Source of the DNA: Escherichia phage HP3
Reading direction: 5' to 3' (one strand)
Length of the DNA: 64,000 bases
Sequence record: NC_041919.1
Position numbers and translations under genes: made by a program. Below, in pieces: positions 59,083 through 64,000 of the stretch (positions are counted from its first letter, which is position 1; each line of letters begins with the position of its first letter). The notes under the pieces were generated by a model that saw only the letters and a list, made by a program, of their open reading frames with translations, was not told the DNA's origin and searched no databases.

Positions 59083-59574
59083 TTATTCCCAATAATCGAG
59101 AGCAAGAGTTACTTCAAAGGTTTGGATTTCATTGTTTGAATCCCAATCTAATTGAAGTTCACCCACGTTAGTAGGCCACAGACCTTTAATTTCAATTTCT
59201 TTTGTTACTGTTTTAGCATCACGAGCATATTGACGAACAATAGCGCTCTTTTTATACTCTGCAGGTTTTCCACCAGTAATTTCGTTTCCTTGACCAGCAG
59301 CAATGCTTTGCCAATCAACAAACTTCTGGCGAGCATCATGAGCTTCATCGTTCATTACTGTAACAGTCCAGTCATCGAATGTACGATCGCCTGCTACGTT
59401 AATTTTACGGTTCATAAATCCGACTGGAATTTTTTCTACAATACCAGCTGGTAAAGCAGTGGCTTTACATTGGAATGTAAAATTTTGTCCAAGATAAGAA
59501 ATTTCTACTTGGAATAAGTTAGGTCGAGCAAAATCACCAGATTCAAACGCTCGTGTTACATCATCTACAAACAT
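59083..59574 (-). CDS. 19: gp19 tail tube protein
   Basis: 163 aa; MFVDDVTRAFESGDFARPNLFQVEISYLGQNFTFQCKATALPAGIVEKIPVGFMNRKINVAGDRTFDDW... matches T4 gp19. Confidence 0.95.
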   Translation of the reverse strand: MFVDDVTRAFESGDFARPNLFQVEISYLGQNFTFQCKATALPAGIVEKIPVGFMNRKINVAGDRTFDDWTVTVMNDEAHDARQKFVDWQSIAAGQGNEITGGKPAEYKKSAIVRQYARDAKTVTKEIEIKGLWPTNVGELQLDWDSNNEIQTFEVTLALDYWE

Positions 59575-59588
59575 ATTAGCCTCTGTAG

Positions 59589-59596
59589 TATTTATA
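59589..59596 (-). promoter_or_regulatory. late promoter for gene 19 (proximal copy)
   Basis: ATATAAATAC on the minus strand, 15-22 nt upstream of the gene 19 ATG. Confidence 0.55.
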
Positions 59597-59647
59597 TCCC
59601 TATGTTTAACCTAGGGCATATAGAATTAAAGAATTAAGGATATAGTG

Positions 59648-59655
59648 TATTTATA
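59648..59655 (-). promoter_or_regulatory. second late-promoter motif downstream of the HNH ORF
   Basis: ATATAAATAC on the minus strand immediately after hairpin GGCCTG-tttcgg-CAGGCC (59657-59674); shares a 10-mer with the proximal copy. Confidence 0.4.
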
Positions 59656-59681
59656 TGGCCTGCCGAAACAGGCCTTTAGAA

Positions 59682-60332
59682 TCATTCTAGTAAATCCCAA
59701 AGATCTACACTATTTCTTTTTGATTTTTCTCGGTTAGATTCCCAAGTGATTATTTCTAAATTATTAATACCGCCAATTATTTTAGCAGGAATTAAATTAT
59801 CAAAACCGTATTTGATAGATACCTTATGATCAAGTTGGTAAGCGCCTTTTGTACCACACACTCCTATTTTATCAGCATTTGGCCATTTTGACCAAATTTT
59901 CTTATGCTTACGAGTTTCTTTATATACCGATGAAATATATTCACGCATTTCAGATTTATTTGGGTTCCATCTTGGATGATTTACGCCATGCATACATTCT
60001 ACTGTTTTTCCTTTATTCGCGGAACCATATGAATTATTGCGCATTTTATCTTTATGACGGCAATCACGACAAATATCAGTGTTTCTTCCAATGCGTTGGT
60101 TATATTCAATTCCACATTTATCGCAACGGCATTTTACATACGCGGTACTACCTTTAATGTCTTCAACTTTAACATCAATTTCATAATACCTAAATCCATG
60201 TTTAACCGCTCCAAGAGGTGTTAATTTATAACCCTTTGATTGATAATGTTTAAAATTTGATGGTACAATTTTCACTTTAATAAATTTAGAAATAATCACT
60301 TGATTCCTCGAGAATAGGGGCCGAAGCCCCAT
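59682..60332 (-). CDS. HNH family endonuclease, free-standing homing-endonuclease-like, inserted between genes 18 and 19
   Basis: 216 aa; C-terminal YQLDHKVSIKYGFDN...GGINNLEIITWESNREKSKRN fits the HNH motif; N-terminal Cys cluster CRCDKC...CRDC; annotated ATG lies inside the gene 18 terminator hairpin so the true start is uncertain. Confidence 0.7.
   Translation of the reverse strand: MGLRPLFSRNQVIISKFIKVKIVPSNFKHYQSKGYKLTPLGAVKHGFRYYEIDVKVEDIKGSTAYVKCRCDKCGIEYNQRIGRNTDICRDCRHKDKMRNNSYGSANKGKTVECMHGVNHPRWNPNKSEMREYISSVYKETRKHKKIWSKWPNADKIGVCGTKGAYQLDHKVSIKYGFDNLIPAKIIGGINNLEIITWESNREKSKRNSVDLWDLLE
60317..60330 (-). terminator. hairpin after gene 18 (weak terminator or RNA stability element)
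   Basis: GGGGC-cgaa-GCCCC directly after the gene 18 stop; no strong T-run. Confidence 0.35.
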
Positions 60333-60337
60333 ATCAA

Positions 60338-62317
60338 TTAACCTGCAAGACCAGTTAACTCATCGAAATCTGCACCAGTAGCAGTTGCGACGAAATTCAA
60401 AGTAATATAATTTATACTGCGCGCCGGTTGAATGTAGAATGTTGCAACAAACTCATTTCTATCAATTACTGACGGAGTGTTATTTGTTGTATCGCAAACT
60501 ACACGATATTCATAAATTCCACCGAGAGCTTTAATTCCCTGTAAGTACTGGGCAGTTTCTGTGCGGAATGATGAACGAGTAAACGCGTTGTTTAATTCGA
60601 ACAAACGATATTTTGAACTACGTCCGATATTCGTTTTCAACATATTAAACAGACGACGAACGTTAATACGATCAAATGGAGAAGGAACAGAAGTAGCTGT
60701 TTTATCACCATACAATACGTAACCATCACCACCTGTACCAGTTACTGGGTTGATAGCTTCTTGATATAAACGGTCGCGCTGAGCTTGGCGAGTTTCAATA
60801 GCAAGTTTAATAACGTTAAGAATCTGACCACGATTATAACCAGCTGGAGACATCCAAGTCTGAGAAACGTTATCAGTTCTCGCGCATAAACCAGCAATGT
60901 CAGCTGCTAATGGAACCCAACGATTTACATCATTATATTTGTCATACTGATATTTGTAGTTACCATCAATTGCTGCGTAGGTTGAACTAATATTAAAGTT
61001 ATTATCAGTATATGAACCTGCCGCAGTTCTCCAGTTAACTAAATTATCTACTGCACGAGTTACAGGAATTCCAACAACAGTTTCACGCGGTGGTGAGCAC
61101 AATACTAAGCAATCTTGGCGAGCATCTCCAATTGAAACGACGTGTTTTTGGACAGTAGATGCTGTTTCTAAAGATTCACCGGCACAAGAACCCGCAATAA
61201 ACAGTTGAACGTCAACAGATTCACGGTCAGCAAAGAAGTCCCAAGCTTCCATCAAATCTCCTGCTGTAACTTCAGCATTTGATGATAATCCACCAGAAAG
61301 AGTTAAAATTCCAGAGAATCCTTCTGGCCAGTTTTGTGCAGTTGCAAAAATATATTCTGAACCACCTTTTGCGAAAAAGTCATCGATATAGATGTTACTA
61401 TCGTAAATATCTTTTTCACCACGCTTAGTTGAAAGAACAACGCTTTGAACAATAGCATCATTTCGACGAACTATAATAGCGTACTGTGAGTCAGTCTGCG
61501 GCCCATATCCAAATACTGCCTTGGCAGTAGATGCACGAGTACCACCACCTGGATAAATTGGCAGTAATGCAGAAGCGCCTTTCGCATAGTCAGCTTTAGA
61601 TACGATTTCAATTTCAATTTTATCGCCTAATTCGCCTGGATAGAGAGCTACTACTCCTGGAATTCCATATTTTTCAAGATTTGCCTGAAAATCAACTGCT
61701 GTCATAGCAGTTTCAGCGCTCTCGATTTCAGCTAATAAAATACCGGAATCAGTAATAATTTTTCCAAGAGTTATTACTGCAGCTAAACCGGAAGAAGATG
61801 AAGAAATTTCTGCAGTCCAGTTAGAACCTAATGTTGGGTATTCGCCAACTTCTTTAGCTTTAGCAATAATTTTTGCAGTAGGAATATTAATTTTCTTAAT
61901 TTTTCCATCAGCATCTACTTCGGTAATTTTACCTTCTGTTTCAACATCTTCTGAAACATATTTGACCGTGATTTTATCTCCAACCGCGTAGTTACTACCT
62001 GGGGTAGAAATTGTGTATTCAATATTACCAGCAATCGGAGATGAGTTTTTAGCGGTATCTCTATCGACAGCGCGCACAACTCGCAAATCATTTCCATATT
62101 GTAAGAAATTCATTGCAGACATAAAATAGTCAGCAGTTTCAGCTGTAGGTTGACCAAAAGTATTAACTAAATCTACTTCGTTTGTAACCTGTTTAATCTG
62201 AAAAGCAGGACCCCACTGGAATTTACCGGCCAAAGCTGCTGTACCAGTAGAGTTATTAACCACGGTGCTTTGAACCGTAGTTTCTTTGAGCTCAATGCCC
62301 GGAGATAATAAAGTCAT
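60338..62317 (-). CDS. 18: gp18 tail sheath protein
   Basis: 659 aa, same length as T4 gp18; MTLLSPGIELKETTVQSTVVNNSTGTAALAGKFQWGPAFQIKQVTNEVDLVNTFGQP... Confidence 0.95.
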   Translation of the reverse strand: MTLLSPGIELKETTVQSTVVNNSTGTAALAGKFQWGPAFQIKQVTNEVDLVNTFGQPTAETADYFMSAMNFLQYGNDLRVVRAVDRDTAKNSSPIAGNIEYTISTPGSNYAVGDKITVKYVSEDVETEGKITEVDADGKIKKINIPTAKIIAKAKEVGEYPTLGSNWTAEISSSSSGLAAVITLGKIITDSGILLAEIESAETAMTAVDFQANLEKYGIPGVVALYPGELGDKIEIEIVSKADYAKGASALLPIYPGGGTRASTAKAVFGYGPQTDSQYAIIVRRNDAIVQSVVLSTKRGEKDIYDSNIYIDDFFAKGGSEYIFATAQNWPEGFSGILTLSGGLSSNAEVTAGDLMEAWDFFADRESVDVQLFIAGSCAGESLETASTVQKHVVSIGDARQDCLVLCSPPRETVVGIPVTRAVDNLVNWRTAAGSYTDNNFNISSTYAAIDGNYKYQYDKYNDVNRWVPLAADIAGLCARTDNVSQTWMSPAGYNRGQILNVIKLAIETRQAQRDRLYQEAINPVTGTGGDGYVLYGDKTATSVPSPFDRINVRRLFNMLKTNIGRSSKYRLFELNNAFTRSSFRTETAQYLQGIKALGGIYEYRVVCDTTNNTPSVIDRNEFVATFYIQPARSINYITLNFVATATGADFDELTGLAG

Positions 62318-62345: not shown

Positions 62346-64000
<1,655 letters not shown>

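What the first reader, a model, noticed from the sequence alone, without database searches (positions are those of the whole stretch)
59575..60337. HNH endonuclease gene inserted between tail sheath gene 18 and tail tube gene 19, with a duplicated late-promoter motif
Genes 18 and 19 are adjacent in T4; here a 216-aa ORF with an HNH motif (LDHKVSIKYGFDN...NNLEIITWESNREKSKRN) and an N-terminal Cys cluster lies between them. Its annotated ATG sits inside the gene 18 terminator hairpin. Two ATATAAATAC motifs occur downstream of it (59648-59655 and 59589-59596), consistent with the insertion having landed next to the gene 19 promoter and duplicated or preserved promoter sequence. This is the signature of a free-standing homing endonuclease acquired in a structural operon.
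Basis: partly seen in the sequence, partly recalled or inferred. Interest (0 to 1): 0.6.

Follow-up and report, generated by a model that had tools for sequence, protein, structure and literature searches.

The report
Optional HNH nuclease gene between sheath and tube
The gene between the tail sheath and tail tube genes is real and probably encodes a zinc-finger HNH nuclease of the selfish homing-endonuclease kind. It belongs to an old, uncharacterised family (phage T6 ORF19.1) that sits at this junction in many T4-like phages, and the two promoter motifs next to it were not made by its insertion.

Summary
The sequence facts hold. A conserved ORF lies between gene 18 (sheath) and gene 19 (tube) of an RB3/HP3-like Tequatrovirus. 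It has a CxxC...CxxC zinc ribbon and a C-terminal D-H...N...N motif.

Four corrections apply:
- **Start codon.** The real start is the GTG at 60299 (205 aa, N-terminus MIISK, GAGGAA ribosome-binding site), not the ATG at 60332.
- **Hairpin.** The hairpin touching that ATG (GGGGCTTCGGCCCC) belongs to the inserted segment. T4's own post-gene-18 hairpin now lies downstream of the ORF.
- **Promoter motifs.** Both ATATAAATAC motifs, each after a hairpin, are identical in insert-free T4 and T2. The insertion duplicated nothing.
- **Mob family and age.** The ORF is not Mob-type and not a recent one-off acquisition. It is a homologue of T6 ORF19.1 (GenBank 1994; phrog_5104, unknown function).

About 23% of roughly 500 Tequatrovirus records carry it, as two alleles (46 RB3-type, 70 T6-type). 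One empty-site phage has almost identical flanks. Homologues sit after the sheath gene in many T4-like genera and metagenomic contigs, once inverted. Longer relatives split rnlA and nrdA.

Best reading: a free-standing HNH homing-endonuclease-like gene tied to this junction. Cleavage and homing are untested. Interest is modest.

The parts
60338..62317 (-). Gene 18 (tail sheath, 659 aa). Its stop codon TAA is at 60340-60338, and the extra segment starts at the next base.
   Evidence: ORF list; annotated as tail sheath in RB3 and other phages.
59683..60337 (-). The 655-bp segment that is present here but absent from T4, T2 and 232Ecol030PP, where 8 bp (TACGGTGC) stand in its place. There is no target-site duplication.
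   Evidence: Alignment A1; 1201 versus 554 bp spans; flank comparison.
60317..60330 (-). Hairpin GGGGC-UUCG-GCCCC, carried by the insert just after the gene 18 stop. The non-conserved upstream ATG (60332-60330) overlaps its first base.
   Evidence: Sequence; RNA fold. Present in RB3-type and T6-type inserts and absent from empty sites.
60304..60309 (-). Shine-Dalgarno-like GAGGAA. The GAGG lies six bases before the GTG start.
   Evidence: Sequence; conserved in both alleles.
59682..60299 (-). The ORF read from its conserved GTG start: 205 aa (MIISKF...), stop TGA at 59684-59682. It is a homologue of T6 ORF19.1 and RB3_165.
   Evidence: phrog_5104 match starts at residue 12 of the 216-aa reading; homologues start at MIISK; RB3 and T6 annotations.
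60060..60125 (-). Cys4 zinc ribbon or treble-clef finger (C59, C62, C77, C80 in 205-aa numbering). It is the inferred DNA-binding or positioning module.
   Evidence: The four Cys are invariant or nearly so in 24 and in 76 homologues. 27 of 76 relatives hit Pfam DUF4379, best E 9.7e-6.
59724..59831 (-). Predicted beta-beta-alpha-metal (HNH, H-N-N variant) core: D157-H158 at the end of beta1, N180-L181 before beta2, N189 and K192 in the helix.
59657..59674 (-). Native hairpin GGCCUGU-UUCG-GCAGGCC, the structure that follows gene 18 directly in T4 and T2. Here it lies just after the ORF stop.
   Evidence: Identical in T4, T2 and all insert-bearing phages aligned; -12.8 kcal/mol, z -4.2.
59648..59655 (-). 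First late-promoter-type motif TATAAATA (inside ATATAAATAC). It pre-exists in insert-free phages.
59598..59616 (-). Second small hairpin CCCUA-GGUUAAACA-UAGGG, immediately before the second promoter motif.
   Evidence: Sequence; identical in T4 and T2.
59589..59596 (-). Second late-promoter-type motif TATAAATA (inside ATATAAATAC), 14 nt upstream of the gene 19 ATG. It pre-exists in insert-free phages.
59083..59574 (-). Gene 19 (tail tube, 163 aa).
   Evidence: ORF list; annotations.

Best explanation
The ORF (205 aa from the GTG at 60299) encodes a two-module nuclease. The N-terminal part contains a Cys4 treble-clef or zinc-ribbon finger, and the C-terminal part is an HNH (H-N-N) beta-beta-alpha-metal domain. 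It is a free-standing homing-endonuclease-type gene of the T6 ORF19.1 family, whose home site is the junction between the tail sheath and tail tube genes of T4-like phages.

The 655-bp cassette sits exactly between the gene 18 stop codon and gene 18's native hairpin. It supplies its own CUUCGG hairpin behind gene 18 and leaves the two gene 19 late promoters untouched, so it should disturb the structural operon little. No exact TATAAATA motif lies between 62346 and the GTG at 60299. The ORF is therefore probably transcribed late, by read-through from gene 18 transcripts, and translated from its own GAGGAA/GTG signal.

Inferred mechanism: in mixed infections the protein cuts the insert-free junction of a related phage, and repair from the insert-bearing genome copies the cassette in. 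An empty-site phage has flanks almost identical to this phage. The recognition site should therefore span the insertion point, which the cassette itself disrupts.

Shown: the anatomy, the conservation, the distribution and the clean presence/absence polymorphism. Inferred: nuclease activity, the target site, homing, and the transcription mode.
For: HNH assignment:
- D157, H158, N180 and N189 are invariant in 76 diverse homologues. The N-to-N spacing of 9 matches the canonical NL..L....H/N pattern.
- The AF2 model (pLDDT 84) places DH at the end of a strand, N180 before the second strand and N189 in the following helix. This is the layout described for His-Me fingers in PMC5714182.
- BFVD Foldseek hits include proteins named HNH endonuclease (2.4e-6) and homing endonuclease (2e-4).
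- 4 of 76 relatives hit Pfam HNH_4 (best E 9.5e-4) and 27 of 76 hit DUF4379. JGI labels some relatives McrA.

Optional cassette:
- 46 records carry the RB3-type allele and 70 the T6-type, out of about 500 Tequatrovirus junctions.
- The exchange is clean, 8 bp against 655 bp.
- Empty-site phage 232Ecol030PP shows 0 differences in 683 nt downstream and 1 in the last 210 nt upstream.

Mobility-type behaviour:
- Two alleles share only 37% N-terminal identity while gp19 is 98% identical, and their leader and 3' third are near-identical.
- A full-length copy lies inverted at the same junction (L027).
- Relatives split rnlA in Acinetobacter phage 133 and sit inside a fragmented nrdA next to a GIY-YIG gene and an intein.
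- One copy is frameshifted and carries a nonsense codon.
- The family is essentially confined to phages: 3 hits, all on MAG contigs, in 185,579 genomes.
Against: - No curated HNH model reaches threshold on this protein.
- No cleavage or homing data exist in the library searched.
- Across genera the ORF's divergence tracks that of gp18 and gp19. About 52 of 80 IMG/VR relatives, and 3 of 3 metagenomic contigs examined, sit at the same junction. This also fits an anciently resident, vertically inherited gene with repeated loss.
- The T6-type flank variant in gene 18 is also found in at least one empty-site phage, so no clean co-conversion signal was seen.
Confidence: 0.6

Rival explanations
1. 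Ancient resident accessory gene. The ORF has belonged to the sheath-tube module since early in T4-like phage evolution and is inherited vertically. It has been lost many times, T4 and T2 being loss lineages. Its patchiness among T-even phages comes only from ordinary homologous recombination between co-infecting phages, not from self-promoted homing.
For: - Same position in Tequatrovirus, Klebsiella, Acinetobacter, Serratia, Pectobacterium, Aeromonas, Shewanella and Sinorhizobium phages and in environmental contigs.
- Identity to the window ORF falls in step with gp19 and gp18 identity: Roth17 64/67/72, Thanatos-2 62/71/65, POP12 53/61/61, Melin 49/63/70, AS-zj 38/51/55.
Against: - A dispensable gene with no drive or benefit should decay. 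Instead the catalytic and zinc residues are invariant over 76 lineages.
- Two alleles with 37% N-terminal identity lie in 98%-identical flanks.
- One copy is inverted at the same site.
- Relatives split rnlA and nrdA.
- The 8 bp versus 655 bp exchange sits on a near-isogenic background.
Confidence: 0.25
2. A nuclease that serves the phage rather than itself. It might be an accessory to DNA packaging or processing, like the HNH partners of terminases in cos phages, or a late-expressed weapon against competitor or host DNA. On this view it is placed in the terminase-sheath-tube-portal module for co-expression.
For: - The gene lies one gene away from terminase gene 17 and one from portal gene 20, and has late-gene context.
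- Synteny is conserved.
Against: - It is absent from about 77% of close relatives, including T4 and T2, which package DNA normally.
- From general knowledge, T4-type terminase has its own nuclease domain.
- Relatives occur in typical homing-endonuclease sites.
Confidence: 0.08
3. A catalytically dead or domesticated zinc-finger DNA- or RNA-binding protein, or a decaying remnant, that merely keeps an HNH-like fold.
For: - No curated HNH model matches.
- The third motif position is N rather than H.
- One natural copy is frameshifted.
- C-terminal-only versions of about 100 aa exist.
Against: - H-N-N is a common active variant of the motif (PMC5714182).
- The D-H, N and N residues are invariant in 76 lineages, which is not expected of a dead enzyme.
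- The window copy is intact and 97-100% identical to 45 others.
Confidence: 0.07

Closest known systems
[not shown]
   Same: Same family, same position between genes 18 and 19, same GTG start and leader hairpin. The 3' third of the gene is near-identical at DNA level.
   Different: The window carries the RB3-type allele. Its N-terminal two thirds share only 37% amino-acid identity with T6 ORF19.1. None of these has a described function: they are annotated 'hypothetical protein' or 'unknown function'.
T4 MobE and the Mob family of free-standing HNH homing endonucleases
   Same: A free-standing HNH-type gene lodged between conserved phage genes, optional among relatives. The nuclease falls in the same broad His-Me 'group 1' as 4h9d, 5h0o, HNH_4 and MobA-E.
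   Different: No detectable sequence relationship (hhalign probability 0.07%). MobE has its HNH motif at the N-terminus (residues 21-44), whereas here the HNH domain is C-terminal behind a zinc ribbon. MobE's cleavage and homing have been shown experimentally (PMC2790892 abstract), while this protein is untested.
I-TevIII of phage RB3 (HNH homing endonuclease)
   Same: An HNH homing nuclease in the same group of phages. From my own recall it also combines the HNH domain with zinc-finger elements; this was not tested here.
   Different: I-TevIII is intron-encoded in nrdB and acts as a dimer (PMC1865063 abstract). The ORF here is free-standing, and no similarity to I-TevIII was tested.
Gene-splitting homing endonuclease insertions (for example mobE splitting nrdA in Aeromonas phage Aeh1, from my own knowledge)
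   Same: Relatives of this ORF split rnlA in Acinetobacter phage 133 and lie inside a fragmented nrdA beside a GIY-YIG gene and an intein.
   Different: The window copy is intergenic and splits no gene.
Small phage HNH nucleases Gme HNH (4h9d) and GVE2 HNH (5h0o)
   Same: Best structural matches of the predicted C-terminal domain.

Membership tests
HNH / His-Me finger nucleases (group 1 of PMC5714182) | Catalytic His at the C-terminal end of beta-strand 1, usually preceded by D/E/H | tested here: met
   D157-H158 are invariant in 24, 17 and 76-sequence alignments. The AF2 model has a strand at 154-158.
HNH / His-Me finger nucleases (group 1 of PMC5714182) | Asn in the loop before beta-strand 2, and a metal-binding His/Asn in the first turn of the following helix | tested here: met
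   N180 and N189 are invariant with a spacing of 9. The model has a strand at 181-185 and a helix at 186-192.
HNH / His-Me finger nucleases (group 1 of PMC5714182) | Significant match to a curated HNH sequence model | tested here: not met
   No Pfam or NCBIfam HNH hit for the window protein up to E = 1. Only 4 of 76 relatives hit HNH_4, best E 9.5e-4.
HNH / His-Me finger nucleases (group 1 of PMC5714182) | Structural similarity to solved HNH nucleases | tested here: inconclusive
   [not shown]
HNH / His-Me finger nucleases (group 1 of PMC5714182) | Metal-dependent nuclease activity | not testable with these tools
   Needs purified protein.
Free-standing homing endonuclease genes of T4-like phages | A nuclease ORF outside introns and inteins, between conserved genes, absent from close relatives with precise boundaries | tested here: met
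   8 bp versus 655 bp exchange. 46 plus 70 carriers among about 500 junctions. Near-isogenic empty site.
Free-standing homing endonuclease genes of T4-like phages | Evidence of horizontal movement: incongruent phylogeny, other sites or orientations | tested here: inconclusive
   For: two alleles in identical flanks, an inverted copy, and relatives in rnlA and nrdA. Against: divergence between genera tracks the flanking genes, and the site is conserved.
Free-standing homing endonuclease genes of T4-like phages | Site-specific cleavage of the gene-less allele and biased inheritance in mixed infection | not testable with these tools
   No experimental report was found in the library.
T4 Mob (MobA-E) family | Sequence similarity to Mob proteins, with an N-terminal HNH motif | tested here: not met
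   hhalign of the family profile A5 against T4 MobE gives probability 0.07%. The MobE HNH motif is at residues 21-44, against residues 157-192 here. Only MobE was tested.
T6 ORF19.1 family (phrog_5104) | Full-length sequence similarity and position between genes 18 and 19 | tested here: met
   phrog_5104 at E 9.8e-91 over residues 12-215. tblastn to T6 ORF19.1 covers 100% at 49% identity. Same junction.
Terminase-associated HNH proteins of cos phages | Adjacent to terminase genes and required for packaging | tested here: not met
   The ORF is separated from gene 17 by gene 18 and is absent from most close relatives, including T4 and T2. The packaging requirement itself cannot be tested here.

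The most novel reading that the evidence does not exclude
The ORF19.1 family may be a nuclease lineage that has stayed locked to the sheath-tube junction through most of the history of T4-like phages. Either a homing endonuclease has co-diverged with its target module, or the nuclease is kept for inter-phage competition. Its N-terminal recognition module would be swapped between alleles: the RB3-type and T6-type share a near-identical leader and catalytic third but have unrelated N-terminal two thirds. Co-circulating phages would then carry rival alleles with different specificities at one locus.
Probability: 0.2. Interest if true: 0.6.

Novelty: new member of a known kind. Interest (0 to 1): 0.35.

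Why it matters
T4-like phages are the model system for free-standing homing endonucleases, yet this family is annotated almost everywhere as 'hypothetical protein'. I found it neither in the review of T4 mobile elements I checked nor in my library searches. It has hundreds of sequence clusters, and most members examined sit at one junction inside the core structural module.

If it is active, it would mark the sheath-tube boundary as a recombination and marker-exclusion hot spot in T-even crosses. It would also offer a natural pair of alleles for studying how the specificity of a zinc-finger plus HNH enzyme evolves.

For annotation the practical gains are a corrected start codon, a functional label, and the knowledge that the tandem gene 19 late promoters are ancestral.

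Tried and rejected
- **Curated models on the window protein.** Pfam and NCBIfam gave no HNH hit, only weak zinc-ribbon noise.
- **PDB sequence searches.** The single protein, the full profile and the C-terminal profile returned only zinc fingers, LRR false positives and a Cas8-HNH fusion at E 0.68.
- **Foldseek against the PDB.** Nothing significant. The afdb50 library was not available.
- **'Mob-type' hypothesis.** hhalign against T4 MobE was negative. Rejected.
- **'Promoter duplicated by the insertion'.** Rejected: both motifs are identical in insert-free T4 and T2.
- **'The leader hairpin hides the ribosome-binding site'.** The extended fold partly pairs GAGG, but its z-score is only -1.28. 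Not claimed.
- **Co-conversion or linkage of a gene 18 flank variant with the T6-type allele.** 88 records have the variant against 70 carriers, and at least one empty-site phage (vB_EcoM_112) has it. Not decisive.
- **Literature.** 'ORF19.1' returned only Candida papers. The 1994 paper I took to be the source of the T6 record (PubMed 8076614; citation from my own recall, unchecked) is not held. In term searches of the two 2010 T4 reviews, '19.1' did not occur and no passage shown mentioned this gene.
- **WL-3 copy.** I suspected a degenerate copy in phage WL-3. Its ORF is intact and merely mis-annotated, whereas the SRR19906131 contig is truly frameshifted.

Full report
**What is there.** The window is a T4-like (Tequatrovirus) genome segment with its late genes on the minus strand: gene 17 (62349-63920), gene 18 sheath (60338-62317), an ORF (59682-60332), gene 19 tube (59083-59574) and gene 20 portal. 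A 1.2-kb stretch across the junction is 100% identical to Escherichia phages HP3.1 and HP3.2 and 99.5% identical to RB3. The 10-mer occurs 3 times in the window against 0.46 expected.

**Start codon and hairpins.**
- The ATG at 60332-60330 is not the conserved start. The PHROG profile and all homologues begin at residue 12 (MIISK...), which is the GTG at 60299, six bases after the GAGG of GAGGAA.
- In phage vB_SsoM_113 the ATG is a GTG, and an extra C in the hairpin puts it out of frame.
- RB3 and T6 are annotated from the GTG, and the T6 record notes 'likely begin by GTG codon'.
- The hairpin touching the ATG, GGGGC-UUCG-GCCCC (60330-60317), is absent from insert-free phages and belongs to the insert.
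- The hairpin that follows gene 18 in T4 and T2, GGCCUGU-UUCG-GCAGGCC, lies here at 59674-59657, just after the ORF stop.

**The junction in relatives.** About 500 Tequatrovirus-type records match the flanks at 90% identity or more.
- 46 carry this (RB3-type) insert.
- 70 carry a second, T6-type allele.
- The rest, including T4, T2 and RB32, are empty.

Aligning both states shows a clean exchange. The 8 bp TACGGTGC of T4 and T2 are replaced by 655 bp (60337-59683), starting at the base after the gene 18 TAA and ending one base into the ORF's TGA stop. There is no target-site duplication.

Downstream of that point T4, T2 and the insert-bearing phages are identical: native hairpin, ATATAAATAC, a second small hairpin, ATATAAATAC, then the gene 19 ribosome-binding site. 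The tandem promoter motifs are therefore ancestral to the junction and were not produced by the insertion.

The empty-site phage 232Ecol030PP differs from the window at 0 of 683 positions downstream and at 1 of the last 210 positions upstream. The polymorphism is thus a pure presence/absence on a near-isogenic background.

**What the protein is.** Curated libraries do not recognise it. Pfam and NCBIfam give only weak zinc-ribbon noise, and PHROGs places it in phrog_5104, 'unknown function'. The evidence for an HNH nuclease is indirect but points one way.
- *Invariant residues.* In alignments of 24 and then 76 diverse homologues the invariant residues are G149, Q155, D157, H158, N180, W186 and N189. 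The four cysteines (C59, C62, C77, C80), L181 and K192 are nearly invariant.
- *Motif spacing.* D-H, then N-L about 22 residues later, then N nine residues after that. This is the H-N-N form of the HNH motif.
- *Predicted fold.* An AlphaFold2 model (pLDDT 84) puts DH at the end of strand 154-158, N180 before strand 181-185 and N189 in helix 186-192. This is the beta-beta-alpha-metal layout described in PMC5714182.
- *Predicted viral structures.* Foldseek against BFVD finds family members plus proteins named HNH endonuclease (2.4e-6) and homing endonuclease (2e-4).
- *Relatives.* Among 76 relatives, 27 hit Pfam DUF4379 (treble-clef zinc finger, best 9.7e-6) and 4 hit HNH_4 (best 9.5e-4). JGI labels a few as McrA.
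- *Mob family.* hhalign against T4 MobE gives probability 0.07%. MobE has its HNH motif at the N-terminus, whereas here it is C-terminal.

**Distribution beyond the T-even phages.** The full-length family has 37 clusters at 90% identity. A profile of the C-terminal domain finds at least 438 clusters, mostly proteins of about 190 aa from metagenomes. The position is very constant.
- The homologue lies immediately after the sheath gene in Shewanella phage Thanatos-2, Pectobacterium POP12, Aeromonas AS-zj, Klebsiella Roth17, Acinetobacter Melin, Serratia WSPA and Sinorhizobium phiM12 (where the next gene is not gp19). The same holds in 3 of 3 metagenomic contigs examined.
- In an HMM scan of 80 IMG/VR loci, about 52 have sheath, ORF and tube in that order on one strand.
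- Identity to the window ORF falls roughly in step with gp19 and gp18 identity (for example Roth17 64/67/72, AS-zj 38/51/55). That is what long residence at the locus would give.

Four observations point to movement instead.
- T6 ORF19.1 shares 98% gp19 identity with the window but only 37% identity in the ORF's N-terminal part and 74% in the C-terminal part. At DNA level the leader plus first 12 codons and the last 240 nt are 91-97% identical, while the middle 390 nt are about 48% identical. This is a module swap.
- Contig L027 carries a full-length copy in inverted orientation between genes 18 and 19, with its own ribosome-binding site and a shared terminator.
- About 28 of the 80 IMG/VR relatives are longer proteins located elsewhere.
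  - One lies inside a fragmented nrdA: RNR piece, GIY-YIG gene, intein plus RNR piece, this HNH relative, then another RNR piece.
  - Another follows a DnaB-like helicase gene.
  - In Acinetobacter phage 133 a relative splits rnlA, and the annotators themselves noted 'some similarity to ORF19.1 of T6'.
- Decayed or truncated forms exist. One copy has a frameshift plus a nonsense codon (SRR19906131), and some versions of about 100 aa are C-terminal only, such as the one in Salmonella phage S16.

The family is practically confined to phages: a scan of one genome from each of 185,579 bacterial and archaeal species gave 3 hits, all on large MAG contigs.

**Most likely mechanism.** I read the ORF as a free-standing homing-endonuclease-type gene whose home is the sheath-tube junction.
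- The cassette looks built to be harmless. It starts right after the gene 18 stop, brings a CUUCGG hairpin to replace the displaced native one, and leaves both gene 19 promoters intact.
- No exact TATAAATA motif occurs between 62346 and the GTG at 60299. Late read-through from gene 18 is therefore the simplest route to expression. A TATAAATT inside gene 18 (60409-60416) is a possible extra promoter. This part is inferred.
- An empty-site phage has almost the same flanks as this phage. A nuclease that spares its own genome should then recognise a site spanning the insertion point, which the cassette disrupts. This is also inferred.
- Cleavage, homing and the role of the zinc ribbon as the DNA-recognition module are all untested.

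**Rivals.**
- *Ancient resident gene.* An accessory gene inherited vertically and lost repeatedly, with patchiness from ordinary recombination. The conserved synteny and the tracking divergence support this. The invariant catalytic residues, the two alleles in identical flanks, the inverted copy and the gene-splitting relatives weaken it.
- *A nuclease useful to the phage.* It could act in packaging or competition. Position and late context fit, but its absence from about 77% of close relatives, including T4, argues against an important role.
- *An inactive fold.* This is unlikely given the conservation of the catalytic residues.

**Novelty and verdict.**
- *Novelty.* The sequence has been in GenBank since 1994 (T6 ORF19.1) and occurs in RB3 and many other deposited genomes. 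The kind of element, a free-standing HNH gene in T-even phages, is well known. I found no functional description of this family in the library.
- *New here.* The HNH plus treble-clef assignment, the corrected anatomy, the two-allele mosaic, and the strong association of a large family with one junction.
- *Interest.* Modest.

Noticed in passing
window 60409-60416 (- strand), inside the 3' end of gene 18: TATAAATT, one base off the late-promoter motif, lies about 110 nt upstream of the ORF's GTG. Codon choices that are synonymous relative to T4 create it (T4 has GCATTAACTACAT here). It is also present in insert-free T2 and in T6-type phages, so it is not tied to the insert, but it could drive the ORF.
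   Followed up: partly
window 59589-59674 (- strand): The region upstream of gene 19 is a tandem of two [hairpin + ATATAAATAC] modules. The arrangement is identical in T4 and T2, so it is an ancestral feature of the 18-19 junction.
   Followed up: yes
L027 3117-3704 (IMG/VR UViG_3300009563_000455): A full-length family member lies between the sheath and tube genes but on the opposite strand. It has its own AGGAG/GTG start and an AT-rich promoter-like region, and a hairpin shared with the end of the sheath gene.
   Followed up: partly
L089 and L090, 2679-3794: A 372-aa relative (C-terminal domain match) sits inside a ribonucleotide reductase large-subunit gene that is broken into three pieces. 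A GIY-YIG endonuclease gene and an intein fragment lie alongside it.
   Followed up: partly
L012 2374-3195 (Acinetobacter phage 133, Acj133p227): A 273-aa relative with the same overall architecture splits the rnlA gene into rnlA-A and rnlA-B. The depositors noted its similarity to T6 ORF19.1.
   Followed up: partly
L023 2124-2680 (SRR19906131 contig); L022 (phage vB_EcoM_WL-3): The SRR19906131 copy of the T6-type allele has a 1-base deletion in an A-run plus a TGG-to-TAG change, so it is a pseudogene. The WL-3 copy is intact, but only its last 59 codons are annotated, as 'putative head morphogenesis protein'.
   Followed up: yes
Phage records listed: Annotation of this ORF and its neighbours is erratic. 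The ORF appears as 'hypothetical protein', 'homing endonuclease', 'HNH endonuclease', 'type II restriction endonuclease', 'gp67' and 'holin'. The tube gene is often labelled 'tail fibers protein'. Some records do not annotate the ORF at all (RB5, RB6, RB7, RB9, RB10).
   Followed up: no
MG010123.1 'Staphylococcus phage SAJK-IND' (32 kb) and PV654520.1 'Pseudomonas phage vB_PSGBLB0006': Both records carry the T-even 18-19 region. SAJK-IND matches at about 98% DNA identity. The Pseudomonas record carries the T6-type ORF (48.8% protein identity to the window ORF, like other T6-type copies). They are probably mislabelled or contaminated.
   Followed up: no
Salmonella phage S16 protein M1HDJ8 (106 aa); P0040, P0060, P0072, P0111, P0112 and others: Versions of about 95-110 aa consist of the C-terminal HNH-like domain only. 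They may be truncated remnants or stand-alone nuclease modules.
   Followed up: no
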